From: a virus
Taxonomy: Duplodnaviria > Heunggongvirae > Uroviricota > Caudoviricetes
Direction: 5' to 3' (one strand)
IMG/VR virus record: IMGVR_UViG_2645727669_000018
DNA length: 43,235 nucleotides
Part shown: piece after piece, positions 1,244 to 35,738 of the stretch
Layout of the letters: every line of letters starts with the position of its first letter
Numbering within the stretch: the first letter of the stretch is position 1
The notes under the pieces: generated by a model
What the model was told of the DNA's origin: nothing
The model's input: the letters and a program-made list of their open reading frames with translations, nothing else
The model's database searches: none
Translations under genes and position numbers: made by a program

Positions 1244-2677
1244 TCAAGGCTGCCCAGTCTTACCAGCATCAGCAGAAACAGCTTTGAGGATATAGGGTTC
1301 CAGAAGTCTGGCAACGGCTTCAAATACTGGCACCACAACGGAGTTACCGAACTGCCGATATGACTGAGTATCTGAAACCGGAATACGGAATGGTTTCCCT
1401 CCAGGTTTTTCAAACCCCATAAGGCGTGCGCACTCTCGGGGAGTCAGCCTGCGTGGTCGACGAGCCTGGTTACTCTCATTCATAAAGTCAGCCTCTCCCG
1501 TTGCCATATCCCAACCACGATCAATAAGAATTTCTGATCCGTCTTTGTGATATCTGGCAGAAAGTGTGCGTGCAATGCTTTCCTTATTCTCAGGATTGAC
1601 CAACCCAAAGCCAAAACCATTCCCCTTGGCTGCATGCTTTTTGGCGTAGTTATAAAGGTACTCCCATAGTTTTGGCGTAAGTATATATTTACTGTCGACT
1701 ACAGGCTCCAGCAATTCACCAAATGATGGGCGGTGTTCCGGATAAAAACGACTGATATCACGCAAGGTAAACCCCTTGTGAATATTCAGATCTCGTCTAA
1801 ATCCGACCAGAACAATGCGTTCACGATGCTGAGGCAAAAAATGCTTCCCATCGATAATCTTTGGATCGTTTTTTCCCATTTCTGCAGCATCGGCAACTTC
1901 GTAGCCCAGCTCGTCAAGGGTCTCCATAATGACTTTGAAAGTTTTACCCTTATCATGGCTCTTCAGATTTTTGACATTTTCCAGCACAAAAATTGCCGGT
2001 TTTTTTGCTCGTATAATACGTGCCACGTCAAAAAAAAGTGTTCCTTGTGCTTCACATTCAAAACCATGCGCACGACCAAGTGAGTTTTTCTTACTAACAC
2101 CAGCAAGGCTAAATGGCTGGCACGGGAACCCCGCAAGAAGCACATCATGATCCGGCACATGCTCATCAATATATGCATAAGCATCCGTTTCCAATACATC
2201 GGTTTTATCACTCAGCGTGACTTCCCGAATATCGAGATTGAATTTATGCACCTGTTCATCGTTAAACCAGTTGGCCTTGTATGTACGCACAGCATCTTTA
2301 TTCCATTCACTGGTAAAAACACACTGGCCTCCAATGGCCTCAAAACCTTTCCGTATCCCTCCAATTCCAGCAAATAAGTCAATGAAGCGGAAAGCATATT
2401 CCGGATGGTTTGCAGGTGGTTCTGGTAGCATCTTACGCAGAAGAGACTCTTCTACTGAAGTCAACGATTTTGGTAAACACTTGCCATTAATCCAGCGGTT
2501 GATGGTTTCACGGCTCCACTCATTTTTTCCGACTTTTCTCAGTAATTCAGCCACATACTTCTGATCATAGATTTCCAGCACTTTCTCGATAAGCTTTTTA
2601 TCATTTTCCTGTCGCAGCTTTTCTTCCGCCTCGGCTTCCTTCAGCAGATGCTGTGCCAACACTTCAAATTCAGACAT
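1244..2677 (-). CDS. ecoRIIM: DNA (cytosine-5)-methyltransferase, M.EcoRII/Dcm-like
   Basis: C5-MTase motifs in translation: [10 protein letters not shown] (motif I), GFPCQPFS (catalytic Cys, motif IV), FVLENV (motif VI), QFGNSV (motif X). Start moved from ORF-track 2719 to ATG 2677, which has GGAGG 5 nt upstream and gives 477 aa. Confidence 0.9.
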
Positions 2678-2984
2678 AATTCCTCCAAGGGGTCTAATGG
2701 GTGAAACTCTATCACTCATTCAACCCAGAAGGAAATGTTTTATCTGGATATTTAAACAGTGACTACAACGTAATCTAGCACTGGTGATGCTTTGTTAGGC
2801 ATAGAGAATCATTCTATATACGACTAATGACAGAAAAACAGCAGACAAGTAGTTTGTTCATAAATTAACGCATACTACGTGCCTACGGTTTTCGAGACCG
2901 GTCCAATCATCAAACGAAACATAAAATTAGCTCACATTATGAGGAAAAGTATCTTTTTTGTACTATGTAAATTCAAAGGCTTAG

Positions 2985-3854
<870 letters not shown>

Positions 3855-3911
3855 GTCTTTAAGTGATAAGCATAAACCGCAGCACGATCTTGCATACGAC
3901 GTGCTACGGTT

Positions 3912-4466
3912 TCATTTATCTCCGACCGGAAACTTCTTATACAGTGTCGATATACCAACATCATAGATGATCGCCACCTTCTGGCGAGGAACGCCTGATG
4001 CAATTAATCGCCCGGCCTGCGCCCATTGTTCTGGTGTAAGTTTGGGACGACGTCCACCAATTCGTCCCTGTGCGCGAGCAGCTTCCAGTCCAGCTTTTGT
4101 TCGTTCAACAATCAGTTCTCGTTCCATTTCAGCCAGGGCACCCATCACATGAAAGAAAAAACGCCCCATCGGTGTGCTGGTATCAATAGCATCCGTCAGG
4201 CTGCGAAAATTAACGCCACGTTCGCGCAACTCCTCAACCAGAATGACCAGATGCCGCATACTACGCCCTAGCCGATCCAGCTTCCAGACAACCAGAGTGT
4301 CACCTGCCGATAATGTCCTGAGCAGTTTTTTCAATCCCGGCCTTTCGGACTTTGTACCGCTTATCTTGTCTTCAAAAATCAGCTCGCATCCTGCACAGTT
4401 CAGCGCATTACGTTGTAGATCTGTGTTCTGGTCATTTGTTGACACACGTACATAGCCAATAAGCAT
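3912..4466 (-). CDS. pin: Serine DNA invertase, Pin/Gin/Hin/Cin family
   Basis: MLIGYVRVSTNDQ...WKLDRLGRS serine-recombinase catalytic motifs and C-terminal HTH; 184 aa from ATG 4466 with GGGAG-type SD upstream; adjacent to an invertible tail-fibre segment. Confidence 0.9.
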   Translation of the reverse strand: MLIGYVRVSTNDQNTDLQRNALNCAGCELIFEDKISGTKSERPGLKKLLRTLSAGDTLVVWKLDRLGRSMRHLVILVEELRERGVNFRSLTDAIDTSTPMGRFFFHVMGALAEMERELIVERTKAGLEAARAQGRIGGRRPKLTPEQWAQAGRLIASGVPRQKVAIIYDVGISTLYKKFPVGDK

Positions 4467-4520
4467 GGTAGATCTCCCTGACAAAAGCAGGAATGATGCC
4501 ATTTGCTCGTTATTTCTGCA

Positions 4521-4546
4521 TTTTCATAAACGTTGGTTTGGGAGAA
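4521..4546. repeat. hix/gix-like 26-bp recombination site (invertase-proximal boundary)
   Basis: Reverse complement reads ttctcccaaaccaacgtttatgaaaa, resembling hixL TTCTTGAAAACCAAGGTTTTTGATAA (from memory); central AA dinucleotide; lies in a 31-bp perfect inverted repeat (4533-4563 vs 6035-6065). Confidence 0.65.
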
Positions 4547-4900
4547 GCGGCAAAACGGAATGTAGGTAACGAGCAAAACCAAATTCCGGATATGGCGGCG
4601 TTTGCCAGTTCACTTTCATCAACGGGGTTTCAAAAACTCCCTTCAGGTCTGATTATTCAGTGGGGTATTGTCAGTGGAGCATCAAACTATACGGTGACTT
4701 ACCCGGTAACATTCCCAAATCGTTCACTTGCGCTGTTGGCTGTGCCACATACAACGTCGGTGGCTGGTATATCTGCAATGGGCATAGCGAACTGTTCTGA
4801 TATCAGCAAATCACAGTTCTATATAATTGTTGGCGGTATATCTCAGGGAGAAATTGTCAAATATGAAAGGTCCTGTTTTTGGGTAGCAATCGGTGTATAG
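4534..4900 (+). other. Alternative tail-fibre C-terminal coding segment (currently unlinked orientation)
   Basis: Plus-strand ORF encodes [23 protein letters not shown]..., sharing the first 10 residues with the expressed fibre ([23 protein letters not shown]) and then diverging; lacks its own N-terminus. Confidence 0.65.
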
Positions 4901-4908
4901 GTATATCT

Positions 4909-5304
4909 ATGATTTATTTCTCAAAATCGACTAATGGTTTTTTCTTTGATGGTATAAACAGCGACATGCCTGCTGACATTGTTGAGATAAGTACAGACTT
5001 ATACAATGAATTAATTGCCGGACAGCAGGAAGGGGGGGAATTAATCACGTCAGATGAAAATGGTTTACCGGTACTGAAATCTCCGGCGATTGATTATGTC
5101 GCACGTGCTGAAAATCAGCGAATGCAGTTACTTGCTCATGCCGATAATGTCACAGCTGACTGGCGGGTGGAATTAATGCTTGGTGATATCAGCAGTACAG
5201 ATAAAGAAAAACTATCTGCCTGGATGGACTACAAAAAAGAAGTAAAAGCCGTCGACACTTCGACGGCTCCTGAGATTAGCTGGCCTGAGTTACCGGAGGT
5301 GTAG
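4909..5304 (+). CDS. Tail-fibre assembly protein (alternate orientation)
   Basis: 131 aa from ATG 4909; C-terminus ...[16 protein letters not shown] parallels the minus-strand Tfa C-terminus (...[14 protein letters not shown]); follows the alternative fibre segment. Confidence 0.7.
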   Translation: MIYFSKSTNGFFFDGINSDMPADIVEISTDLYNELIAGQQEGGELITSDENGLPVLKSPAIDYVARAENQRMQLLAHADNVTADWRVELMLGDISSTDKEKLSAWMDYKKEVKAVDTSTAPEISWPELPEV

Positions 5305-5695
5305 GCCATTCAATATCTGGCGCACCGGAAGTATCGACCAGTTCCAGTGCGTCCAGGTAATCCAGCCACAAATTATATTGTGCCAGTTCCTCACCTTTCA
5401 GCCGGCCAATAGCCGCTTTACCAGGCCATTGTTTACTGTTCATATAATCGTTGGCCTGTTCAATAAGTATATTTTTCATTCCCTCCGCTTCAGCTATTTC
5501 CTGTTCCTGTGTCTTCGCTGGATATTCAGTAAGTATAGGGTAGTTATCCGGGCTATTGATAATAATTTTCCCCGTACTCTGACCATTCATAAGTTCATAA
5601 TAAAGAGCATCTTCAATATCGAAAGCATCATCGGGAATATCGCTGTTGTTTTCAGAGAAAAATCCCTGAACAGATGGGGACCATTTCATTTTCAT
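5276..5695 (-). CDS. Tail-fibre assembly protein (expressed orientation)
   Basis: 139 aa; start overlaps the fibre stop (ATGA); Tfa-like conserved C-terminus; convergent with and overlapping the alternate tfa gene. Confidence 0.75.
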
Positions 5696-6354
5696 AATTT
5701 CCCAATTCCTAAAATATGGACATCATCAGCCTTACGGGCATTCCAGGTGACAATTACATCGGTAGAGTGACGATTAACTGAGATTGCGTATGCTTCGTTA
5801 GTCGAGCCAGAAACTTTTGTGGCAAACACAGCAAACAGGACACCAAATGACTGGGGCCATTTATAGCCTGACAGCTGATAATTACCATTATTCAGTGTTA
5901 CAGCTTTGGCTGCTGCACTTGATGGAATCGTCAGCCACTGGAGTATCAACCCTCCTGGCAAAAGTTGTTTTCCGTAATAATCCCTCACCCCACTAAATGA
6001 AACCATGTCCGGTATCTGATTTTCCCCTGTGCCCACATTCCGTTTTGCCGCTTCTCCCAAACCAAGGTTTTCGAGAGCCGTTTTCACCGTGCCATCCGAT
6101 TTGATATCGCTAAACGGATTCTTGCGGCTTAACAGCAGCGCACGAAGCGCGGTAAGCAGCTGGTCATGCCGCCCCTTCTCCAGGCTGGCACCGGATGCCT
6201 CCACCACGCTGCAGAGTTCTTCCTGCAACATATCAAAGTAGTCATCATCAAGATCGGTGGCAGGTGTGCCGGTCTGGGGGTTACCACGGGTAAAACCGTT
6301 TTTACCCGCGCCGAACTTATCCTTCTGCGCGGTTTTCGTGTCTATACGATGCAT
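5692..6354 (-). CDS. Side tail-fibre protein (constant N-terminus plus invertible C-terminus)
   Basis: 220-aa ORF spanning the recombination site at 6064/6065; N-terminal about 100 aa outside the segment, C-terminal about 120 aa inside; resembles e14/Mu-type short fibres (from memory). Confidence 0.75.
6052..6077. repeat. hix/gix-like 26-bp recombination site (fibre-proximal boundary)
   Basis: ttctcccaaaccaaggttttcgagag; core AAACCAAGGTTTT matches the hix consensus core (from memory); inverted relative to the site at 4521-4546. Confidence 0.65.
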
Positions 6355-6357
6355 GGA

Positions 6358-6942
6358 TTACTCCGGATATTTAAAAATTACGTAGGTATGCGACGGGCAG
6401 AGTTTGTTAAGCACACACTCGACAACGGTGTCGCCCCATATACGCAGCGCGGAATCACAGGGATCGCCACATGTCATCCAGGTGGTGTTGGTGGCGGCTG
6501 GCATGTTGATCTGCCAGTAATACCGCCATTCCGGCGCATTCACCTCGTCAGTACAGGCCGATGAGCAGGTGAAGGTGCTTTTGTCGTATCGCGTGATGGT
6601 GGCATCTGGCCTGCCCAGGGCAGCAAGCTGTGCAAGATAAAAATCCTCGTTGATGCCGCCCGCCAGGTTAACCTTCGCATCCAGCCGTTGCTGACGCTGG
6701 CGAAGGGTCTGCGCTCCCGCCGGAATACATTCATCCGGCAGACCGCACAGACGCTCCCAGCGGTTTATCAGTTCAGTGGTGGTGCGCGGATCCAGCTCCC
6801 GCATCAGGGCATCCGCACGCTGATGAACGCGGGTTAATGACGGTGCCGCACCGGCAATCGCCGGATCTCTGGCTGACCACGCCGGACCGGGTGGCAACAG
6901 TGCCGACAACAGACGGATGTAATCATCGTTTGTCACGTCCAT
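6358..6942 (-). CDS. Tail protein, YmfQ/DUF2313-like (Mu gp48 family)
   Basis: 194-aa ORF immediately upstream of the fibre gene; recalled similarity to e14 YmfQ; position matches Mu-like baseplate/fibre connector. Confidence 0.6.
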
Positions 6943-7991
6943 GAAATCGTCCCCAGAACCGCCAGTTCATTTTTCGCAATGGAGATATTGTCTGCCGGTG
7001 CAAGCAACTGATGGCTATATTCCCCGTTCGCACCGGAAATCGCCTCACTGATACGCGATACCTTCAGTTCTCCCTGCGGATAACCATCACGCAGAAGAAA
7101 CGAACGCAACTCCGCGGTGATGGCGGCTCGTATTTCTGGTGTGTCCGGCGTCACGCGGATATGAAAATCCACCGTATGTGCCACCGGCCTGAATACATAC
7201 AAATCAGAGCCTGCCACCGGGGCCAGTGGCACGATATGTTGTCTTGCTGCCGTTTCCGTTGATTCTTCCGGAATGGGATTAATCAGGTCACTGCTGGCAA
7301 TCATCACACCGACAGTTCCCGTTCCCATCCAGTGACGGTATGTCCATGCGCGGGTAATGCCGGGCACTTCTTTAGCCCAGACGACATAGTCCCCGTCAGC
7401 CCCGCCCTGAGGCGTCCAGTAATACCGCTCAATGACGCGGGCGCGCCACGTTTCCAGCTCTTCAGTATCAAATCCGCCTGTAAGGGTGTCAGCCACACCG
7501 GAAGACGGCAGACCATTCACCGGCGTGACCAGGATTAATGCCGTACCGTCGTCAGCGTTACCGACCGCACCTGCACTTGAGCAGGCGATCGGCACGCGCA
7601 GGACACCACCGGAGCTGGTTGCATCGGCAGTTGCCGTGTACTGAACCAGGTCATCGCGCTGAATAACACTCCCGGCGGTCACCTTCAGGCCATCGCTGAC
7701 ACCTTCCCAGCGCATATACCCGCTGGCAGCCGTGGCCCCCTTGCGCGGACACCGTTTCATCGCAGCATGTCGCGCCAGCCAGGACTCATCGCACAGGTCA
7801 GGCAGCATGTTCATTGCCAGATAATCGATGTAACCGTAAACCGTATGCAGCGCCGCCGCATACACCTTTGCCCGCACGTCTTCATCCATGCGCCGGAGCG
7901 TGTCGCTGACGTCCAGCCTGGCGAATAAATCGTTACGGAGCATACTGATATTTTCTGCCAGCGTCGGGCGCTGAAATTCACTGTCCGCCAT
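6933..7991 (-). CDS. Baseplate J-like protein (Mu gp47 family)
   Basis: 352 aa; size, position and family pattern typical of baseplate J proteins in Mu-like tail clusters; overlaps neighbours by a few nt (operon packing). Confidence 0.7.
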
Positions 7992-8406
7992 GCGTTATCG
8001 CACTCCACAGATCATCAAAAGAAATCATTACCGGTCCGTCACGACGCCAGAGAGTGATACTGTTACCCAGTTCATTAATCCCGGTGCGGCGGATATCCAG
8101 ATCAATACGGGACACCACGCCGTCATCAATCATCCATTGCAGGCATTCGCGGATATACCCCCTTACCGTCTGCACCAGCTGATTGGTCAGTTTGCTGCGC
8201 TGAAGCAGCCACAGTCGGGAGCCGTAACGGTCATTCTGTACCGCAGGCCAGGTATCCCCCCACCATCCCATCGGGACGTCGGCGTTGTCATCAGGCTCCG
8301 CCCGCCGCCAGGTAAACAGGGAAATCACCACGGCGCGGGTCAGCGGATCCAGTTGTGCGCTGGCGCAGGTGCGTTTACCGTTCACCGTCAGCCACAGTTC
8401 CATCAT
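7978..8406 (-). CDS. Baseplate protein, GP46 family
   Basis: 142 aa, between baseplate spike and baseplate J genes as in Mu-like clusters. Confidence 0.55.
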   Translation of the reverse strand: MMELWLTVNGKRTCASAQLDPLTRAVVISLFTWRRAEPDDNADVPMGWWGDTWPAVQNDRYGSRLWLLQRSKLTNQLVQTVRGYIRECLQWMIDDGVVSRIDLDIRRTGINELGNSITLWRRDGPVMISFDDLWSAITHGGQ

Positions 8407-8951
8407 GCCTCCATCGCTTTATCAGGTTTGTCGGTGTTACTGCCCTGACCGTTCTCTCTGTGACGATGCCCGTTATAGGCAAGCCGCATCGCTGACATGG
8501 TGGTGCCGGTGGAGTCGCACAGGTCTTTCACCTGTCCGGTCACTTCTAGGTCCATTTCAAAACGTGCCTTAGGCGCATTGCGAAACGTGATCGTTTTACC
8601 TGCACCGTCCACCACGATCCCCTCCCGGGCCAGCGTCACGGACTGCCCCTGATCGTCATAGACAGCCACCTCACCCGTCTGCAGCCCTTTCAGGCGGTAG
8701 CGCCGGTCCGACACCGTAACAACCACCGCATGAGAACGGTCGCCATCCGGAAACAACACCACCGCTTCCGCACCGCTGTTTGCCCTTGCGGTAAAACCGT
8801 AGGGTTCAAGATGTTCAACCCCGGCTTTGGGTTCACCGGCAATCAGGGACACATCCACGGTCTGACATTTCGTGGCGGCACTGATGCTTTTCACCACTGC
8901 CCGCCCAATCAGGCCGAGGAGTTGTCGCTGCATGGCTTCAATCGTCCTCAT
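8403..8951 (-). CDS. Baseplate assembly/spike protein (gpV-like, Mu gp45 family)
   Basis: 182 aa; conserved position; translation consistent with gpV-type OB-fold spike proteins. Confidence 0.6.
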   Translation of the reverse strand: MRTIEAMQRQLLGLIGRAVVKSISAATKCQTVDVSLIAGEPKAGVEHLEPYGFTARANSGAEAVVLFPDGDRSHAVVVTVSDRRYRLKGLQTGEVAVYDDQGQSVTLAREGIVVDGAGKTITFRNAPKARFEMDLEVTGQVKDLCDSTGTTMSAMRLAYNGHRHRENGQGSNTDKPDKAMEA

Positions 8952-10030
8952 CAGAACGGGTCCTCCTGTACTCTGGCTTTTTTCTTTTTCCGCGCGCCGG
9001 GGGCTTCGGGTTCAGGCAGATAAGCATCAGGTGGGCCGACACGGATTTCCGTCATGGTGCCGTTCTGGTCCTGAGTGAACGTGACTTCCGAGACAAGCAG
9101 TTCGGTATTGTCGAAACCACAGACCGGATCGAAGACAATCACCCGCTGGTTGGGCTGCCACAGCGTACCGTTACCCTGTCGCCAGCCCTGCACCAAATAG
9201 GTGGTTTCATCCGTCCGCGCCGCCCGTTGTCGGGCTTCAAAGTCAGCACGCGCAATACAGCCTGCCCCCGTGGCCTGCCCTGTCTGCCTGATATACATCG
9301 GACGGTAACGGGCAATAAATGCGTCCTCTGTGCGGGCCCGCAGCGCGGTGGTGGTGGCCTCACCGAAATCATCGTCGTTCCCGGCACGCTGCCCCGCCAC
9401 CTGGTAAACAGAAAATCGCTCCCGGATACTCTTCTCCGTATCGCAGGAAAGGATGTTTTCCCCGAGTACCAGCGCAGTATGTGCCCGCGTTGAGCCAATA
9501 CCGCCAATCACCAGCCTGCCGTGCGGGTCGTCGTAAGCCAGTGCCTGCTGCTGACCGAGTATTTTGTTGATTACCTCAATCACCGTTTCACCGTGATCAG
9601 GCTGAACATCAGGAATAACACCCGACGGCGCACCGCTGTTCACCACCTCAATGCCGAAAGGCGCAGCAAGCGCCTGCGCAATCTGCACCAGCGAGCGTCC
9701 GTTAAACTGTGTCGGTTCGGCTGCACAGTCAATCAGGTCAGCCGTCAGACTACGTCCGGCAATACCGGTGCTGACCGAACGGGCATCGTAACGAACGGGA
9801 GTCGCCTCCACCCAGCCGGTGATCACCAGCTCATCACCAATCAGCACTTCCACTTTTGAACCGTTTTTAATGCGCGGCTGAAGCGTGGTGATACCCTCAT
9901 CTCCCGGCCACTGGCGAGTGATCTCCACACTGAAATCCCGCGCCAGCCGTTCAATACCGGCACCGATGCGCACCGATGTCCAGCCATTCCACTCCCGGCC
10001 ATTTACCCGTAGCGTGACATTGTCGTTCAT
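8951..10030 (-). CDS. Tail/baseplate hub protein (Mu gpP / P2 gpD-like)
   Basis: 359 aa directly downstream of the DNA-circulation gene, the position of Mu P; ends in a Lys-rich tail. Confidence 0.55.
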   Translation of the reverse strand: MNDNVTLRVNGREWNGWTSVRIGAGIERLARDFSVEITRQWPGDEGITTLQPRIKNGSKVEVLIGDELVITGWVEATPVRYDARSVSTGIAGRSLTADLIDCAAEPTQFNGRSLVQIAQALAAPFGIEVVNSGAPSGVIPDVQPDHGETVIEVINKILGQQQALAYDDPHGRLVIGGIGSTRAHTALVLGENILSCDTEKSIRERFSVYQVAGQRAGNDDDFGEATTTALRARTEDAFIARYRPMYIRQTGQATGAGCIARADFEARQRAARTDETTYLVQGWRQGNGTLWQPNQRVIVFDPVCGFDNTELLVSEVTFTQDQNGTMTEIRVGPPDAYLPEPEAPGARKKKKARVQEDPF

Positions 10031-11355
10031 TGCACTGGCACCTTCAGAGGGATCACCGGCACAAAGCCGGGATGCGTAATGGCATTACGCCGGATAATGT
10101 CCGCGTCACGCGCCGCGTTATCAAACCAGGTCGCCGCCAGCACCAGCGCGGGTAAAACCTCATCCGGTGTGCGCTGAATGATCCGTGCAGACTGTTCAAG
10201 GCGCGTGTTGATATCCGCATTCAGATCTGCTTTCACCCGGCGCAGCGCCAGAAACAGCGCATCACTGGTTGTACGGGACAACTCCTTATCAATTGCCGTA
10301 TTCAGTGTGTCGCGAATGTCAGTCAGTTCTTCCCACGTCGGCAGGTCAACCGTGTTTTTCACCGCCGGTGCATTGTTCAGTGCCGGATGCGTGACGGAAG
10401 GCCAGCCAGTGCTCTGCGCAGGTGTTGTTGCCTGCCCCACTGCGGAATTCTGCATCACCGCGGAAGTTGTTGGCGCAGGCAATCGGGTGACGGCATACGC
10501 CGCTTCACTGATTGCGGTCGTACGAAGGGTGCTGGCAACCACATTACGCTGCTGCGTAGCCGTGGCGGTGGTTTTACTGTCCGTTTTCCAGACACCGCGC
10601 GGTTGCAGATCGCTGCCGAGGCTGACACCGGAAAGCGTTTTGATCATGGTGACCAGGTCGCTGGCGTTACCATAAAGGCGTTTCCCGGTACGCCACATTT
10701 TCTGCACCTGCTCAACGAGATTTTTGCCTGACGATGGTGGCGGCAGAAGTACCGAGATATCCCCCTGCAACAGCCTGGCAGCATCCGATACGGCAGAATC
10801 CACCACTTTCATCGCATCAGAAACATACCCAAGCATTGTGCTGACATTACCAACGACGTCGTTCTGCACGAAATCCGCCACGCCATCGATACTGAAACCT
10901 CTGAAGCTGTCACTGATGCAGTCATCCAGTGCAGAACAGGATGACATCAGCGTCTGCGCCGTCGCCGCACCTGAAGTGGGGTAAGAGAGTTCTCCCGCTT
11001 CGACAAACTTCAGGTCAAAGCGGACAATACGCCCTTCACTCTTCGATGTGCTGACCCGAACTTCCCCGTCAACACAGACTTTCAGCTCACCATATGTCGG
11101 GTGGACAAGCGTGCCGGGACCGGGTTTATTCAGCGCTTCAATCAGGCGATCTCGCTGGTCAAAGCAGTCATCTCCCACCACATAAGCTGTGATGGACGGG
11201 CGGAAAGTGACTTTTCCCAGATCTTCGGTATAGGGTTTGTCGCGGTTCGGGTATTCATGTGTTTCCACACGGCGACCGGTTCCCGCACTTTCTTCTTCAA
11301 CCTTAAACGGCACACCTCGAAATGACGCATCCTGAAGCCTGTCTTTCCACGTCAT
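10027..11355 (-). CDS. DNA circulation protein (Mu gp43/N-like)
   Basis: 442 aa from ATG 11355 (GGAG 5 nt upstream) rather than the GTG at 11361; between tape-measure and baseplate genes. Confidence 0.65.
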   Translation of the reverse strand: MTWKDRLQDASFRGVPFKVEEESAGTGRRVETHEYPNRDKPYTEDLGKVTFRPSITAYVVGDDCFDQRDRLIEALNKPGPGTLVHPTYGELKVCVDGEVRVSTSKSEGRIVRFDLKFVEAGELSYPTSGAATAQTLMSSCSALDDCISDSFRGFSIDGVADFVQNDVVGNVSTMLGYVSDAMKVVDSAVSDAARLLQGDISVLLPPPSSGKNLVEQVQKMWRTGKRLYGNASDLVTMIKTLSGVSLGSDLQPRGVWKTDSKTTATATQQRNVVASTLRTTAISEAAYAVTRLPAPTTSAVMQNSAVGQATTPAQSTGWPSVTHPALNNAPAVKNTVDLPTWEELTDIRDTLNTAIDKELSRTTSDALFLALRRVKADLNADINTRLEQSARIIQRTPDEVLPALVLAATWFDNAARDADIIRRNAITHPGFVPVIPLKVPVQ

Positions 11356-24379: not shown

Positions 24380-25162
24380 TTATTTTTTCTTCTTATTTAA
24401 CTTATCTAAATTGACGGGATCTTTCCCTGTGGCAGCTAAACACCAAAAAGAATAACTCTTTTGCATGACATAGGTTCTAATTCTCTCTAATGTTTCATTA
24501 TATTTTTTCTCAACAACCTGTATCGCATGTTCAAATAAATTAATCATATCAACATGCTCGTCCTCGACACCAATCATGCTCAGTTGTTTTCTATCTGTCA
24601 CTGCTTGATAAAATGTTTTCCCATTTTTCCTTATTAGTAACAATGAAGTTTCTGCTGACTCATAGTCTTGGTTGCCGCTATGTGCTGCAAAATTATGCCT
24701 GTAGTTAATAATACAGTCATGCAACCCAAAATATTCAGAATCAAGCCAATCACGCTCCATCTTTAACTTTCTCCCTTTAGCTTCAGAGAAAGCTTTACCA
24801 TAAAACGTTAGGCTTGCCACAAATAACGCTCTAATTTCACTTGATAAATCTAGATCAAGTATATTCCCGTATAACTTGCCATCTGTCCTTAATTCGTTTC
24901 TCCCTGCCAGTTCATTAGCTATTTGGTACCACTCTTTAGCACTTTTTAAGTCCCTATGAATTAGGGACAGTGAAGATGCTCTATCGGCAATACGCCCACT
25001 CAATTTTATGCGATCTACAATTTCATTATTGAATGTATAAACCGCTTTAAATTCCCCCGTTTCGGAATCAATATAATATTCAACATCTAACCCTTCATAT
25101 GATTCACACCCGGGACCTTCTAATTTTTTTCTTTTCATATAGAATATCCATATACGTTTCAA
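24380..25162 (-). CDS. Hypothetical protein (AT-rich moron between Rz and HNH)
   Basis: 260-aa ORF (TTG at 25162; first ATG at 25138 gives 252 aa); Lys/Asn/Tyr-rich, visibly AT-rich; no recognisable motifs; own terminator. Confidence 0.6.
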   Translation of the reverse strand: MKRIWIFYMKRKKLEGPGCESYEGLDVEYYIDSETGEFKAVYTFNNEIVDRIKLSGRIADRASSLSLIHRDLKSAKEWYQIANELAGRNELRTDGKLYGNILDLDLSSEIRALFVASLTFYGKAFSEAKGRKLKMERDWLDSEYFGLHDCIINYRHNFAAHSGNQDYESAETSLLLIRKNGKTFYQAVTDRKQLSMIGVEDEHVDMINLFEHAIQVVEKKYNETLERIRTYVMQKSYSFWCLAATGKDPVNLDKLNKKKK

Positions 25163-26162: not shown

Positions 26163-26489
26163 TTACTCCTTAGAGCCACCAAACTTATTACCGATTACTC
26201 TCATTGCAGCCCCACGAATAGCATCGACCCCGATCAGCCCAACGCCGCCACCAATGGCAACAGAAAGAGATTTAGGCCATCCGACATACTCAAGAGCGGA
26301 TGCAAAAGTCAGCGTCAGAGCACCACAGAGCAAAATCTCGAGCGTTTTTCGTTTCCAGCCACCACCACCGCCAAAATAGGCAATGCGCAAGCCAGCCATA
26401 ACGATCGACATAATCACTGCGCCCAGCGGTGTGTCTCCACGCCACCAGCTCTGGACCAACTCCAGCCAGGTATTTGGGTTATGAGGCAT
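26163..26489 (-). CDS. Holin
   Basis: 108 aa with three hydrophobic helices and charged C-terminus, immediately upstream of endolysin. Confidence 0.7.
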   Translation of the reverse strand: MPHNPNTWLELVQSWWRGDTPLGAVIMSIVMAGLRIAYFGGGGGWKRKTLEILLCGALTLTFASALEYVGWPKSLSVAIGGGVGLIGVDAIRGAAMRVIGNKFGGSKE

Positions 26490-26627
26490 TTGTAGTTATC
26501 TCTCACCTCGCTGATACAGCAGGTGCAAATTGAGGGAACATCATGTACCGCAAATCAGAAGCGGAAACATCAAAGAAGCCGAACCGATGGAGAACTGCGG
26601 AATAGGCCAGGACCAACGAATCCCCAG

Positions 26628-26665
26628 CCACAGAAACGACAAAACCCGCTCGACGGCGGGTTTAA
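26628..26665 (-). terminator. tR'-like intrinsic terminator upstream of the lysis genes
   Basis: Minus-strand RNA aaacccgc-cgucga-gcggguuu followed by UGUCGUUUCUG; 8-bp GC stem; about 140 nt upstream of holin start. Confidence 0.55.
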
Positions 26666-26695
26666 GCTGTGTGGCGAAGTAACCACTCTTAACAG

Positions 26696-26724
26696 ATTAC
26701 AATGTTTTTTGCGGACCGCGCTAA
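26696..26724 (-). promoter_or_regulatory. Candidate late promoter (PR'-like)
   Basis: Minus strand TTAGCG - 17 nt - TGTAAT just upstream of the tR'-like hairpin; weak -35. Confidence 0.25.
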
Positions 26725-26785
26725 TGATTTCCTCTTTTTTTTGTTGTATTTTTCACACGGTTGCTAAAATTATTTCGGATCGATA

Positions 26786-27727
26786 ATGAGTACAGAAAAT
26801 AAGAATAAAACCAGGCGAGTGAGAGTTGGTTTTTTCACTGGTAATGGAAGCAAAAAAGATGGCACATCTGCTGCAAAACTAGCCTTTGAGCAAATGACCA
26901 CAGCAGATACTGTAACTTTTCCAATAACTTACACAACAGACACCCCAAGTCGAGGGTTAAAGTTAGTTATTCTTCAAAAAGATACCACACTGCAATGTTA
27001 CTTTGGTTACGTATCGTGGAGAAGGGAATGCCTACTACCGTTCATCGAGGATGCTACAGGTAGTGAGAGAACAATTCCTTTAAATGATAAAGATTCTGTA
27101 GTTGAAAGAACATATTTTATCTATTACTACGAAACGGACTTATTAGCTATGACCCTCAACCATATAGGGCCCAAAGTAAATGATCTGGCATTCATTTTGT
27201 ATAACAAAACTGATTTAAAAAGCGTCACTTTTGAAGCCATTTGGAAACAAGAGAGCATGAAGGAACTGCTTGAGGACGGAAATATCCTACGTAGTTTCGA
27301 TCTTATAGTTGCTGCTCCAAGAAACTTTAACAAAGCTAATTATAAGATTAAAAACCCTTTAGCTAATGAAATTATTGACATGGTTGTTGGTATGGGCGGG
27401 TCGCATCTAAGATTAAATATGCGAGGTCGGATTCGCCCGAAAAAACAAGGGTTTAACTATCTAAAAACTTCTGTCACCGATGCTATTAAGGAACTACTTG
27501 AACTTTTTCCAAAAGGTTCTGGAGGTCTAAAAATTAAAAAAATTGATGTAACAGAGCCATCCAATAGAACGCCCAAAAGTCTACTTGACCAAGTATTGGT
27601 CAGTACAAAGACAATCATTGTCAAAAGCGGTTATCCATCCGATTCTGATATCAGAACGGCGATGATATCTGCTAAAATTGATAACGCGAACTATCTTGCA
27701 CAGTATGAGCTCGCTAGCAGAGACTAA
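26786..27727 (+). CDS. Hypothetical protein, first gene of a two-gene Q-S cassette
   Basis: 313 aa, AT-rich, on the strand opposite to the late genes; no recognisable motifs; stop 21 nt before the partner gene start. Confidence 0.7.
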   Translation: MSTENKNKTRRVRVGFFTGNGSKKDGTSAAKLAFEQMTTADTVTFPITYTTDTPSRGLKLVILQKDTTLQCYFGYVSWRRECLLPFIEDATGSERTIPLNDKDSVVERTYFIYYYETDLLAMTLNHIGPKVNDLAFILYNKTDLKSVTFEAIWKQESMKELLEDGNILRSFDLIVAAPRNFNKANYKIKNPLANEIIDMVVGMGGSHLRLNMRGRIRPKKQGFNYLKTSVTDAIKELLELFPKGSGGLKIKKIDVTEPSNRTPKSLLDQVLVSTKTIIVKSGYPSDSDIRTAMISAKIDNANYLAQYELASRD

Positions 27728-27748
27728 TAACCAAGCATGGAGGACACA

Positions 27749-28198
27749 ATGAGAGAATTAGCCACTTTTCTCTGGAAATGCGTCCTCTGGATTCTGTTGA
27801 CCTATGCAGCGACAAAACTGTTTAAACCGATGAAGCATGCTGACGTACTCACAACAGCGGGGGTGCTCTCGACTATATCAGGCATCCTGTTTGGTTTTGT
27901 TCTGGCTGCAATATCTATATTTAGTAGTGCAAACAGCGATAAGGAAGGAGCAATTAATGCCCTTAAGCAAAACAACGTGTTACCAACTCTGGTAAATAGA
28001 TTACTTTCAACAGGGTTAACTCTCATCGTCGCATGTATATTTCCATTGATAGCGATGTTTCTACCTGATGATGTTATTGTTGCGGGCAAACCTATTGATT
28101 TCCTGTTCATACTGTTAGGCTTATCCTCCCTTATAATTTCGCTATATACCTTCGGAAGGTGTTGGTTAGTGTTACGAAAAATCTTCCCCCACTTGTGA
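27749..28198 (+). CDS. Small polytopic membrane protein, second gene of Q-S cassette
   Basis: 149 aa from ATG 27749 (GGAGG 5 nt upstream; ORF track starts at 27737); about four hydrophobic helices. Confidence 0.7.
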   Translation: MRELATFLWKCVLWILLTYAATKLFKPMKHADVLTTAGVLSTISGILFGFVLAAISIFSSANSDKEGAINALKQNNVLPTLVNRLLSTGLTLIVACIFPLIAMFLPDDVIVAGKPIDFLFILLGLSSLIISLYTFGRCWLVLRKIFPHL

Positions 28199-28226
28199 CA
28201 GGTTGGCCTCATATGGGGCCAACCTG
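28199..28226. terminator. Stem-loop between cassette and convergent Q gene
   Basis: 10-bp perfect inverted repeat caggttggcc/ggccaacctg with 8-nt loop, right after the cassette stop. Confidence 0.45.
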
Positions 28227-28233
28227 TGCAACC

Positions 28234-28602
28234 CTAAGCGTCCATTTCAAGGTTAAAATCCAACATTGAAAGGCAACCATCAATAAATCCTTCGGCTAGT
28301 TGTATTTCTATGCGTACCAATTTTTCATCCTTTCCACGCACCTTTGCAATCTTACGCTTGGATATTCTGTATAAATAATGTGCCACAAGCAGCGAGTGCT
28401 CATCTGGCTTTTTTTGCTTTAGACGAGCAAGACAACCTTCAATAATTAATGCATCACTATCTGAACAAGCCTGACGTGTTTTGCTTGTGTAGGGAAGAAG
28501 CCCCTTAAACCCAGCAGCTATAGGCGAATAGTCTACTCCAGAACTATCACTCGCCGCCCATGCTCCCCAACGCTCCAGAACCATCTGAATATCACGCATC
28601 AA
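28234..28602 (-). CDS. Late-gene antiterminator Q (small Q family)
   Basis: 122 aa, MMRDIQMVLERWGAWAA... recalled as the N-terminus of lambdoid prophage Q proteins; sits upstream of the lysis cassette. Confidence 0.7.
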   Translation of the reverse strand: MMRDIQMVLERWGAWAASDSSGVDYSPIAAGFKGLLPYTSKTRQACSDSDALIIEGCLARLKQKKPDEHSLLVAHYLYRISKRKIAKVRGKDEKLVRIEIQLAEGFIDGCLSMLDFNLEMDA

Positions 28603-34471: not shown

Positions 34472-35164
34472 ATGAACATAGGAAACCGAGTCAGACAACT
34501 TCGCCAAGCGAAGAACATGAAAATCGCCGATCTCGCTGAAGCGATAGGAGTAGATGCGGCGAACATCTCGCGCTTAGAAACGGGTAAGCAAAAACAATTT
34601 ACCGAACAAACACTGAGTAATATTGCCAAGAGCTTAGGTGTTGATATTGCTGATCTCTTTACCTCTGCCCACAAAAGTAATACTGTATATAAAAACAGTA
34701 ATAATGAGGATGTTGCGCAGGTGAAGGATGTGTTCCGTATTGAAATGCTGGATATCAGTGCCAGTGCGGGAAATGGCCTTATCCAGGGCGGTGATGTCAT
34801 TGATGTGATTCATGCCATCGAATACAGAACTGATAATGCTGTATCAATGTTCGGCGGACGACCAGCCAATCACATCAAAGTTATCAACGTTCGTGGGGAC
34901 AGTATGTGTCCAACCATTGAGCCAGGAGATCTCATCTTCGTTGATGTCAGCATCAATCAGTTTGATGGTGATGGTATATATGTCTTTGGTTTTGATGATA
35001 AAATATACGTTAAAAGACTTCAAATGATTCCTGACAAACTGCTGGTGATTTCTGATAACCAGATTTACCGTGAATGGGGAATTACTAGCGAAAACGAACA
35101 CCGATTCATGGTCTTTGGAAAGGTCTTAATCAGTCAGTCGCAAACCCTTAAGAGACATAATTAA
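34472..35164 (+). CDS. cI: cI-type repressor (HTH plus S24 LexA-like peptidase domain)
   Basis: N-terminal HTH; C-terminal GDSMCPTIEPGDLIFVD with catalytic Ser and downstream VKRL Lys (Ser-Lys dyad). Confidence 0.9.
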   Translation: MNIGNRVRQLRQAKNMKIADLAEAIGVDAANISRLETGKQKQFTEQTLSNIAKSLGVDIADLFTSAHKSNTVYKNSNNEDVAQVKDVFRIEMLDISASAGNGLIQGGDVIDVIHAIEYRTDNAVSMFGGRPANHIKVINVRGDSMCPTIEPGDLIFVDVSINQFDGDGIYVFGFDDKIYVKRLQMIPDKLLVISDNQIYREWGITSENEHRFMVFGKVLISQSQTLKRHN

Positions 35165-35183
35165 CCTCAATATCCCATCCATC

Positions 35184-35208
35184 GGCCACCGAAAGGTGGC
35201 TTTTTATT
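35184..35208 (+). terminator. Rho-independent terminator after cI
   Basis: ggccacc-gaaa-ggtggc followed by ttttt, 20 nt after the cI stop. Confidence 0.65.
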
Positions 35209-35218
35209 ACCTATAAAT

Positions 35219-35255
35219 TTGCATATCTCGCAAATATCACTTGCATATCTCGCAA
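35219..35255. repeat. Two 15-bp direct repeats TTGCATATCTCGCAA (candidate operator/PL-type sites)
   Basis: Identical copies at 35219-35233 and 35241-35255; each an imperfect dyad TTGC-N7-GCAA; at the start of the leftward operon. Confidence 0.45.
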
Positions 35256-35462
35256 TTTAATTTTATCTTTTGTTCCAGACCAACTACAGGATTACAACAA
35301 AATCTGGTTGCAACACGGTGCATGTGTCGTAAGCAGTCAGTAAATGTCAAAAACGAACAGGCAGGACGCCCACGAAGTAGCCGCCTGGGGCATATGAAGT
35401 CCAGGATGATTCGTTGAGTCATGTTGTGCCACTAGGCACTCATGTTAAAGCAGGTGTATGAA

Positions 35463-35738
35463 ATGAAAGTCCAGATTTTAAACAATAACTGTGAAGTCGT
35501 TTGGTCATACGACATAGCCGCCCCTGTAGATCAGAGCGGCGATAGCTGGACCAATGGGAAACATCAGATTATGGCTGGAGTTGTGTTCTCTTTACGCCGT
35601 GCTTTGGAACAGGCTGAAGTATTTCCATCAGACCCTGAATGGAAATGGCCTTTTTCTATTTGTCCAAATTCGGAGAGCACATTTCAGAAAATTGGTCAGA
35701 AAGTCGCACTCGAAGAGCATCAGCCAACTGTTTCCTGA
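35463..35738 (+). CDS. Hypothetical protein (first gene of leftward operon)
   Basis: 91 aa from ATG 35463 with AGGTG SD; overlaps a convergent minus-strand ORF. Confidence 0.4.
   Translation: MKVQILNNNCEVVWSYDIAAPVDQSGDSWTNGKHQIMAGVVFSLRRALEQAEVFPSDPEWKWPFSICPNSESTFQKIGQKVALEEHQPTVS

What the first reader, a model, noticed from the sequence alone, without database searches (positions are those of the whole stretch)
26490..28232. Opposite-strand two-gene cassette (313-aa soluble protein plus 149-aa four-helix membrane protein) at the Q-holin moron hotspot
The Q-to-holin interval, where Stx phages carry toxin genes, is occupied here by a 1.4-kb AT-rich cassette on the strand opposite to the late operon. 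Gene A (313 aa) has no recognisable motifs; gene B starts 21 nt after it with a strong GGAGG SD and encodes a small polytopic membrane protein. The pairing mirrors the RexA/RexB sensor-plus-membrane-effector layout without obvious sequence similarity, so it is a prime candidate for an uncharacterised lysogen-expressed defence or exclusion system. A 10-bp hairpin separates it from Q, and a PR'-like promoter and tR'-like terminator lie on the holin side.
Basis: partly seen in the sequence, partly recalled or inferred. Interest (0 to 1): 0.85.

Follow-up and report, generated by a model that had tools for sequence, protein, structure and literature searches.

The report
Rex-like two-gene phage exclusion cassette
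Between the late-gene activator Q and the lysis genes of this E. coli prophage sits a two-gene operon that is a distant, previously unnamed relative of phage lambda's RexA/RexB abortive-infection system, so it is most likely a lysogen-expressed anti-phage defence of a known kind, not a new kind of system.

Summary
Two + strand genes, A (26786-27727, 313 aa, soluble) and B (27749-28198, 149 aa, four membrane helices), form an AT-rich operon between Q and the holin, opposite to the late genes.

A is followed by B in 79 of 80 viral contigs. In phages AUS531phi and Aaphi23 the same pair sits directly after cI, the rexA-rexB position. Both genes are under purifying selection.

Most likely function: a Rex-type sensor plus membrane effector that aborts superinfection. 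It is a new member of a known kind. No paper names DUF6731 and PADLOC misses the pair. Whether it equals the RexAB-like "Sucellos" system could not be tested. No expression or phenotype data exist.

The parts
26786..27727 (+). Gene A: 313-aa cytoplasmic protein of the DUF6731 family with a RexA-like two-domain fold. Proposed infection sensor and activator.
27749..28198 (+). Gene B: 149-aa membrane protein with four transmembrane helices, RexB-like. Proposed membrane-damaging effector.
   Evidence: Hydropathy. AF2 gives four helices. Foldseek hit to Sbash gp31. The Vibrio homologue hits PADLOC RexB at E 1.6e-4. hhalign of A8 against the RexB family gives E 7.8e-5. B follows A in 79 of 80 loci. 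dN/dS is 0.11.
27739..27743 (+). GGAGG ribosome-binding site of gene B, 5 nt before the ATG.
   Evidence: Sequence. AGGAGG is conserved in homologues at 74-100% identity. More distant homologues have a gap of 4-14 nt or an overlap between A and B, which fits translational coupling.
26721..26770 (+). Candidate promoter region of the cassette. Two candidates: CTAATG (26721-26726), 17 nt, TTGTAT (26744-26749); and an extended -10 TGcTAAAAT (26762-26770). Inferred only.
   Evidence: Read from the sequence. The CTAATG-17-T(A/T)GTA(T/A) arrangement recurs in the 75-100% identity group. The consensus scanner found no promoter at its threshold.
28198..28227 (.). Strong hairpin between the convergent stop codons of B and Q. 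Possible bidirectional insulator or RNA-stabilising element.
   Evidence: dG -27.3 kcal/mol, z -5.1, no U tract.
26641..26724 (-). Phage backbone, not part of the cassette. Probable late promoter PR' with a Q-binding region (-35 TTAGCG 26724-26719, palindrome GCGGTCCGC, -10 TGTAAT 26701-26696), followed by a tR'-like terminator (26663-26642).
   Evidence: Terminator scan. The segment is 94% identical to SfII and 93% identical to many lambdoid phages in the same position upstream of the holin. The palindrome lies 70-99 nt upstream of A in 71 of 76 loci.
28234..28602 (-). Antiterminator Q, the convergent neighbour. It is linked to the cassette in 75 of 80 related loci.
   Evidence: PF06530 E 4e-51.

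Best explanation
The cassette is a two-gene operon encoding a Rex-type abortive-infection or exclusion system. Gene A is a cytoplasmic protein with the RexA fold, probably a DNA-binding dimer. Gene B is a small four-helix inner-membrane protein related to RexB.

By analogy with lambda RexAB, Sbash gp30/31, CarolAnn gp44/43, P. putida RexABpp and V. cholerae Sucellos, the proposed course of events is as follows. The operon is transcribed from its own promoter in the lysogen. When another phage infects, A senses a phage product or a replication or recombination intermediate. A then activates B, which forms a pore or channel. Membrane potential and ATP fall, growth stops, and the infection aborts.

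Shown here: gene structure, operon organisation, purifying selection, the RexA-like fold of A, the four-helix membrane character of B, remote sequence similarity of both proteins to their Rex counterparts, strict pairing, and occurrence of the same pair in the cI-rexA-rexB position of other phages.

Inferred: expression in lysogens, DNA binding, A-to-B activation, membrane depolarisation, and protection against phages.
For: Evidence on A:
- The order of secondary-structure elements in the model is six strands plus helices, then a beta-alpha insert at 149-256, then a seventh strand and a C-terminal helix. This matches the split globular domain plus inserted dimerisation domain described for RexA (PMC11077077).
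- hhalign of DUF6731 (71 sequences) against RexA (22 sequences) is collinear and full-length, E 3e-4. It aligns the most conserved motif of each family: GPxxxDL (A G128/P129/D133 with RexA G109/P110/D114) and FEAIWK with IEPLMR at the hinge.
- The signal grows with alignment diversity: E 0.12, then 0.026, then 3e-4.

Evidence on B:
- hhalign against RexB also improves with diversity: E 0.64, then 0.017, then 7.8e-5, probability 61%. The aligned stretch is TM2 plus the central loop, the region where Sbash gp31 R70A and D73A abolish defence (PMC6426596).
- The Vibrio B homologue (hhalign probability 99.4 to the B family) hits only the RexB model among 5027 PADLOC models, E 1.6e-4.
- The second-best viral fold match of B is a 165-aa Sbash protein, the length of gp31.
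- The best viral fold matches of A and of B come from the same uncultured phage, ctylc9.

Evidence from context:
- A is followed by B in 79 of 80 IMG/VR loci.
- A polytopic membrane partner follows the DUF6731 gene in Pseudomonas, Aggregatibacter, Streptococcus, Listeria and Vibrio phages.
- In AUS531phi and Aaphi23 the pair lies directly downstream of cI on the same strand.
- The same slot in SfII holds PADLOC candidate PDC-M53.

Against: - No direct sequence hit links A or B to the Pfam, PADLOC or NCBIfam Rex models.
- The profile-profile probabilities are only 40% and 61%, and membrane-protein profiles are prone to compositional matches.
- Lambda RexB is not among B's top 50 viral fold matches, and lambda RexA is not among A's top 50 Foldseek matches.
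- No sigma-70 promoter reaches the scanner's threshold upstream of A.
- Nothing here shows expression in the lysogen, toxicity, or protection.
- Even for lambda Rex the trigger and the channel activity are not fully established.
Confidence: 0.65

Rival explanations
1. The parts are Rex-like but the logic is reversed, as in mycobacteriophage Butters gp30/gp31. The cytoplasmic A protein would be the toxic antiviral effector, and membrane protein B would only sequester it until infection releases it.
For: Butters is an accepted Rex-like system with this logic (PMC12894663 discussion). The fold and pairing evidence does not discriminate between the two logics.
Against: Four of the five systems listed in PMC12894663, and Sucellos as well, use the membrane protein as effector and need both genes. 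B is more conserved in its TM2 and loop core than a simple anchor would need to be.
Confidence: 0.1
2. The pair mainly serves the prophage's own life cycle rather than defence. Lambda RexA biases the lysis-lysogeny switch and RexB modulates proteolysis. Here the pair might tune late-gene or lysis timing, given its fixed position between Q and Q's target promoter.
For: A-B is convergent with Q in 75 of 80 loci. The PR'-like block lies 70-99 nt upstream of A in 71 of 76 loci, and the candidate -35 elements are back-to-back. RexA has a documented role in the bistable switch that is independent of RexB (PMC11077077 abstract).
Against: The same pair occurs in quite different contexts: next to an integrase in a PM2-like Vibrio prophage, next to cI in AUS531phi and Aaphi23, and before the terminase in Javan1. 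The function therefore does not depend on Q. Other cargo in the slot is defence-like or a porin. This reading can coexist with defence.
Confidence: 0.12
3. The resemblance to Rex is convergent or spurious. A would be an unrelated DUF6731 protein and B a generic small membrane protein, such as a superinfection-exclusion factor that blocks DNA entry, a holin or antiholin accessory, or an addiction-type toxin.
For: No significant direct HMM hits exist, and the hhalign probabilities are moderate. Four-helix membrane proteins give many weak matches, for example to DUF4064 and MotA_ExbB.
Confidence: 0.1

Closest known systems
Phage lambda RexA/RexB exclusion system (Pfam PF15969/PF15968; PDB 8TWQ)
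   Different: No direct sequence or HMM match; identity is about 14-16%. In this prophage the pair lies between Q and PR'/holin, opposite to the late operon, not downstream of cI in the PRM transcript. The trigger and phenotype are unknown.
Sucellos (SclA/SclB), Vibrio cholerae superintegron cassette (bioRxiv 10.1101/2024.07.02.601686; in DefenseFinder)
   Same: It is described as structurally RexAB-like but not matched by the Rex Pfam families. It has two genes, both required, with its own promoter, and kills or arrests infected cells. Homologues are 'preferentially in prophages' of Enterobacteria. The A/B family here also has Vibrio members.
   Different: The SclA/SclB sequences could not be obtained (supplement truncated), so identity or relatedness is untested. 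Sucellos is reported as frequent in Salmonella, whereas this family's close members are mainly from E. coli, Citrobacter, Yersinia and Serratia.
Actinobacteriophage Rex-like systems: Sbash gp30/gp31 and CarolAnn gp44/gp43
   Same: A soluble RexA-like protein plus a four-helix membrane protein, both required for defence, and prophage-expressed. The B model matches a 165-aa Sbash protein of gp31's length (Foldseek probability 1.0, TM 0.53). In Sbash the pair lies just downstream of the lysis cassette.
   Different: No detectable sequence similarity (hhalign E 0.08-0.26 with single sequences). The hosts are actinobacteria. gp30 is reported to carry DUF4747 rather than DUF6731.
Pseudomonas putida RexABpp (PP_5643/PP_5644; PMC12894663)
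   Different: The proteins are larger (about 37 kDa, and a membrane protein of more than 181 aa). The pair lies near the CI-like repressor.
Kiwa (KwaA membrane protein plus KwaB DUF4868)
   Same: A small polytopic membrane protein paired with a soluble protein of about 310 aa, acting in anti-phage defence.

Membership tests
RexAB-type (Rex-like) two-component phage exclusion systems | The soluble component has the RexA fold: a split globular domain with an inserted dimerisation domain, related to RdgC. | tested here: met
RexAB-type (Rex-like) two-component phage exclusion systems | The partner is a small inner-membrane protein with four transmembrane helices, encoded immediately downstream in the same operon. 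| tested here: met
   Hydropathy and AF2 give four helices. The gap is 21 nt with a GGAGG site. A is followed by B in 79 of 80 loci.
RexAB-type (Rex-like) two-component phage exclusion systems | Sequence homology of the two proteins to RexA (PF15969) and RexB (PF15968). | tested here: inconclusive
   There are no direct HMM hits. Profile-profile comparison gives A E 3e-4 (probability 40%, full length) and B E 7.8e-5 (probability 61%, 64 columns). The Vibrio B homologue hits PADLOC RexB at E 1.6e-4. As a control, the proven Rex-like Sbash gp30/31 also miss these HMMs.
RexAB-type (Rex-like) two-component phage exclusion systems | Carried by a temperate phage and expressed in the lysogen, classically from the immunity region next to cI. 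| tested here: inconclusive
   Prophage carriage is shown. Distant family members lie directly after cI. In this window the pair is in the Q-PR' slot instead. Expression in the lysogen was not testable.
RexAB-type (Rex-like) two-component phage exclusion systems | Both genes are required for protection against heterologous phages through membrane depolarisation or growth arrest. | not testable with these tools
   This needs plaque assays, growth curves and membrane-potential dyes.
RexAB-type (Rex-like) two-component phage exclusion systems | The RexA-like protein dimerises and binds DNA non-specifically. | not testable with these tools
   Only a monomer prediction was available. No multimer or DNA modelling tool was on hand.
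Pfam DUF6731 (PF20505) | Score above the gathering threshold (27 bits) for PF20505. | tested here: not met
   The window protein itself gives no hit at E<=1. Its homologues at 44-62% identity do pass: cdtI orf54 scores 41.4 bits and P0022 32.7 bits. A profile of the window family recovers DUF6731 proteins. It is therefore a divergent member by transitivity, not by direct score.
Sucellos (SclA/SclB) | Match to the DefenseFinder SclA and SclB profiles. | not tested
Kiwa (KwaA/KwaB) | KwaB DUF4868 domain and the KwaA-then-KwaB gene order. | tested here: not met

The most novel reading that the evidence does not exclude
DUF6731 plus its four-helix partner would be a large, so far unrecognised branch of the Rex superfamily. 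It is spread through temperate phages of both Gram-negative and Gram-positive bacteria and is distinct from every named Rex-like system, including Sucellos. In enterobacterial lambdoid prophages it has moved from the immunity region to a fixed position between Q and Q's own target promoter. Its promoter there lies back-to-back with PR', so Rex-type defence would be switched by the late-gene antitermination machinery rather than by the repressor.
Probability: 0.15. Interest if true: 0.6.

Novelty: new member of a known kind. Interest (0 to 1): 0.45.

Why it matters
Rex was the first abortive-infection system found, about 70 years ago, and its trigger and activation step are still unknown. Only a handful of Rex-like systems have been described; PMC12894663 lists five, and Sucellos makes six.

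Linking a Pfam family of unknown function (DUF6731) and its unnamed membrane partner to RexA/RexB has three consequences:
- It assigns a probable function to genes that RefSeq calls hypothetical. These are present in about 1-2% of complete E. coli genomes and in many other Enterobacterales, Vibrio, Pseudomonas, Aggregatibacter, Listeria and Streptococcus phages.
- It gives a much more diverse alignment for finding the residues that matter in both proteins.
- It shows that current defence finders (PADLOC 2.0) miss this branch.

The finding also documents the Q-PR' interval of SfII/e14-like prophages as a slot for defence cargo on the opposite strand.

Tried and rejected
Searches that gave nothing useful:
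- Direct family searches of A and B (Pfam, PADLOC, NCBIfam, PDB sequences): only PHROG families of unknown function.
- Literature search for DUF6731 and PF20505: no paper.
- The genome-contig scan gave only 3 loci.
- The viral-contig scan with the broad alignment failed for lack of a conserved stretch, and scans with single distant members found nothing.
- The afdb50 fold library was unavailable, so B could not be compared with bacterial RexB models.
- Rfam and tRNA scans of the region were empty.

Comparisons that failed for lack of power:
- Single-sequence hhalign against lambda RexA/RexB and Sbash gp30/gp31 was not significant. Signal appeared only with family profiles on both sides.
- BLASTP of the Vibrio B homologue against lambda RexB found nothing.

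Sequences that could not be obtained:
- SclA/SclB (Sucellos): the stored supplement is cut inside Table S1 and no locus tags are in the text.
- P. putida RexABpp: not in any collection available here.

Rejected readings:
- Kiwa: wrong gene order and no hits.
- Pseudogene or chance ORFs: rejected because dN/dS is 0.05-0.11 and the genes are conserved down to 43% identity.
- The hairpin between B and Q as a canonical intrinsic terminator: rejected because it has no U tract on either strand.
- An intermediate idea that the 70-nt block shared with lambda-like phages came from the bor region: dropped after the hit context showed it lies upstream of the holin and next to variable cargo.

Full report
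**1. What is there.** The window is an E. coli prophage with a lambdoid early and lysis region, an HK97-type head and a Mu-like tail. Over the cassette (window 26700-28232) it is 100% identical to the chromosome of strain R12, whose annotation around that stretch shows this prophage layout. The phage genes around the finding are on the - strand: Q (28234..28602, PF06530, E 4e-51), a lambda-type holin (26163..26489), an endolysin and a spanin.

Two + strand ORFs lie between Q and the holin. A is 26786..27727 (313 aa). B is 27749..28198 (149 aa). They are 21 nt apart, with GGAGG 5 nt before B's ATG. GC falls to 0.35-0.44 here from 0.47-0.58 in the flanks. A has no hydrophobic segment. B has four, and AlphaFold2 gives four long helices.

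A 13-bp hairpin (28198-28227, dG -27.3 kcal/mol, z -5.1) separates the convergent stops of B and Q, but it has no U tract. Against an 84%-identical homologue, dN/dS is 0.05 for A and 0.11 for B, so both are functional genes.

**2. The surroundings.** The 233 bp upstream of the holin (26490-26723) are 94% identical to Shigella phage SfII. A 70-nt core (26641-26709) is 93% identical to many lambdoid phages, always just upstream of a holin and next to variable cargo.

This block contains a terminator-like hairpin with a T tract on the - strand (26663-26642). Upstream of that lie a weak promoter match (-35 TTAGCG, 17 nt, -10 TGTAAT) and the palindrome GCGGTCCGC between the two hexamers. The palindrome lies 70-99 nt upstream of gene A in 71 of 76 related viral loci. 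It is also present in SfII, cdtI and vB_EcoS-733R5.

I read this block as the phage's PR'/Q-binding/tR' module. That is an inference from position and conservation, not a demonstration. The cassette would therefore sit between Q and Q's own target promoter, outside the late transcript.

The same slot holds other opposite-strand cargo in related phages. SfII_50/49 are the PADLOC candidate defence system PDC-M53 (E 2e-32 and 3e-54). Lambda_4C10 has an OmpD-like porin there. The 'moron hotspot' description is therefore supported. No tRNA and no Rfam family is present.

**3. Distribution and pairing.** Pfam, PADLOC and NCBIfam give nothing for A or B. PHROGs places them in phrog_7651 and phrog_8552, both of unknown function. 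Homologues of A down to 43% identity are annotated DUF6731 (PF20505). No paper in the library mentions DUF6731 or PF20505.

A profile search of 1.84 billion representatives finds 171 family representatives, most of them about 290-aa DUF6731 proteins. The window allele occurs in 73 of 5426 complete E. coli genomes and the cdtI allele in 25.

In 80 IMG/VR contigs carrying an A homologue (43-100% identity), B follows A in 79. A PF06530-type Q gene is convergent with B in 75. The usual order is R- S- A+ B+ Q-.

Outside this context the pair appears in several other places:
- next to the integrase of a PM2-like Vibrio prophage;
- directly downstream of cI, on the same strand, in Pseudomonas phage AUS531phi and Aggregatibacter phage Aaphi23;
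- with a polytopic membrane ORF downstream, in Streptococcus phage Javan1 and a Listeria phage.

The cI-adjacent position is exactly that of lambda cI-rexA-rexB.

The model's element order is six strands with helices, a beta-alpha insert at about 149-256, then a seventh strand and C-terminal helices. This matches the published split globular domain with an inserted four-stranded dimerisation domain.

At sequence level the signal rises as the alignments broaden. The family against single RexA gives E 0.12. The close family against the RexA family gives 0.026. The broad DUF6731 alignment (71 sequences) against the RexA family (22 sequences) gives E 3e-4, with 254 collinear columns covering both proteins almost end to end.

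The two most conserved motifs of each family fall on each other. The first is NHxGPKxxDL with xxFGPTTxDL. The second is FEAIWK with IEPLMR, at the hinge between the two domains. Foldseek against viral models finds five further uncharacterised phage proteins with this fold (E 8e-15 to 2e-7) but not lambda RexA.

**5. What B is.**
- B has the size and topology of RexB: 149 aa against 144 aa, each with four helices.
- Direct HMM searches fail. The same PADLOC models also miss Sbash gp30/gp31, an experimentally proven Rex-like pair, so those models are narrow.
- The Vibrio B homologue is unambiguously a family member (hhalign probability 99.4). Among 5027 PADLOC models it hits RexB alone, E 1.6e-4.
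- Profile-profile comparison with a six-member RexB alignment, built from loci next to RexA homologues, improves with diversity. E goes from 0.64 to 0.017 to 7.8e-5 (probability 61%) once the partners from AUS531phi, Aaphi23, Javan1, Listeria and Vibrio are added.
- The aligned stretch is the end of TM1, TM2 and the central loop, with the shared pattern L-[AI]-K-x-[MIL]-[RK]-x-x-G-x-M. This loop is where R70A and D73A inactivate Sbash gp31 (PMC6426596).
- By fold, B's second-best viral match is a 165-aa Sbash protein (probability 1.0, TM 0.53). gp31 is annotated at 165 aa, and no other gene in the 14-kb stretch of the Sbash genome I read has that length.
- B's best viral match comes from the same uncultured phage (ctylc9) as A's best match.
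- Lambda RexB itself is not in B's top 50, so the link is probable rather than proven.

**6. Mechanism.** Taken together, the cassette is best explained as a Rex-type sensor-effector pair. In the systems studied so far, the RexA-like protein is a DNA-binding dimer and the membrane protein is the effector. These systems are lambda, Sbash, CarolAnn, P. putida RexABpp and V. cholerae Sucellos. Activation of the effector collapses membrane integrity or potential and arrests or kills the infected cell (PMC11077077, PMC6426596, PMC12894663, bioRxiv 10.1101/2024.07.02.601686).

I propose the same here, with confidence 0.65. Everything beyond fold, topology, pairing and context is inference. Candidate promoters exist but none is strong. 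They are CTAATG-17-TTGTAT, conserved in arrangement in the 75-100% identity group, and an extended -10 TGcTAAAAT specific to this allele.

The rivals are:
- the reversed Butters logic (0.10);
- a mainly prophage-internal regulatory role, suggested by the fixed Q-PR' position (0.12, and not exclusive of defence);
- a spurious or convergent resemblance (0.10).

The nearest possibly identical system is Sucellos. It is described as RexAB-like by structure, invisible to the Rex Pfam models, and found in enterobacterial prophages. I could not obtain its sequences, so this remains open and is the first thing to check. Kiwa was considered and rejected.

I rate the finding a new member of a known kind. 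It is useful and moderately interesting (0.45) because it annotates DUF6731 and its partner and greatly widens the Rex family. It also exposes a gap in defence finders. It is not a new kind of system.

Noticed in passing
window 24380-25162 (- strand): A second AT-rich (GC about 0.36) 260-aa ORF lies between the spanin genes and the HNH/terminase genes. It belongs to phrog_8440 (unknown function) and has no Pfam, PADLOC or NCBIfam hit. It looks like another moron at the junction between the lysis and packaging genes.
   Followed up: partly
L018 (Shigella phage SfII KC736978) 2082-3696; equivalent slot to window 26724-28233: SfII carries a different opposite-strand two-gene cargo, SfII_50/49, in the same Q-PR' slot. 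It matches PADLOC candidate defence system PDC-M53 A/B (E 2e-32 and 3e-54). Lambda_4C10 (L017) carries an OmpD-like porin there.
   Followed up: partly
window 26696-26726: The palindrome GCGGACCGC (26711-26719) lies between a -35-like TTAGCG and a -10-like TGTAAT on the - strand. It is conserved 70-99 nt upstream of gene A in 71 of 76 related loci and in phages with other cargo, so it is probably the Q-binding/PR' region. Its -35 is back-to-back with a candidate -35 (CTAATG) for gene A on the + strand, which hints at coupled or competing divergent promoters.
   Followed up: partly
L003 (vB_EcoS-733R5 ON470608) 3477-4418: The gene A homologue is annotated 'portal (connector) protein' in vB_EcoS-733R5 and vB_EcoS-716R3. 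This is almost certainly a mis-annotation.
   Followed up: no
L106 (Streptococcus phage Javan1 MK448665) 4233-4730; L104 (Pseudomonas phage AUS531phi) 4126/4165-4611: Javan1 has an unannotated 165-aa ORF with four hydrophobic segments right after its DUF6731 gene. The annotated start of the AUS531phi partner (118 aa) cuts off the first membrane helix. A start overlapping the upstream gene, giving 148-161 aa, fits the family better.
   Followed up: partly
window 34472-35738 (from L004 27773-29039): The slot downstream of the prophage's own cI-like S24 repressor holds only a small hypothetical gene and no Rex-like pair. In this phage lineage the Rex-like module is at Q-PR' rather than in the immunity region.
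   Followed up: no
L014 (Mycobacterium phage Sbash KP027201) 5301-10509: In Sbash the proven Rex-like pair gp30/gp31 lies just downstream of the lysis cassette (lysin A, lysin B, holin). This echoes the lysis-adjacent position of the cassette in this window.
   Followed up: no
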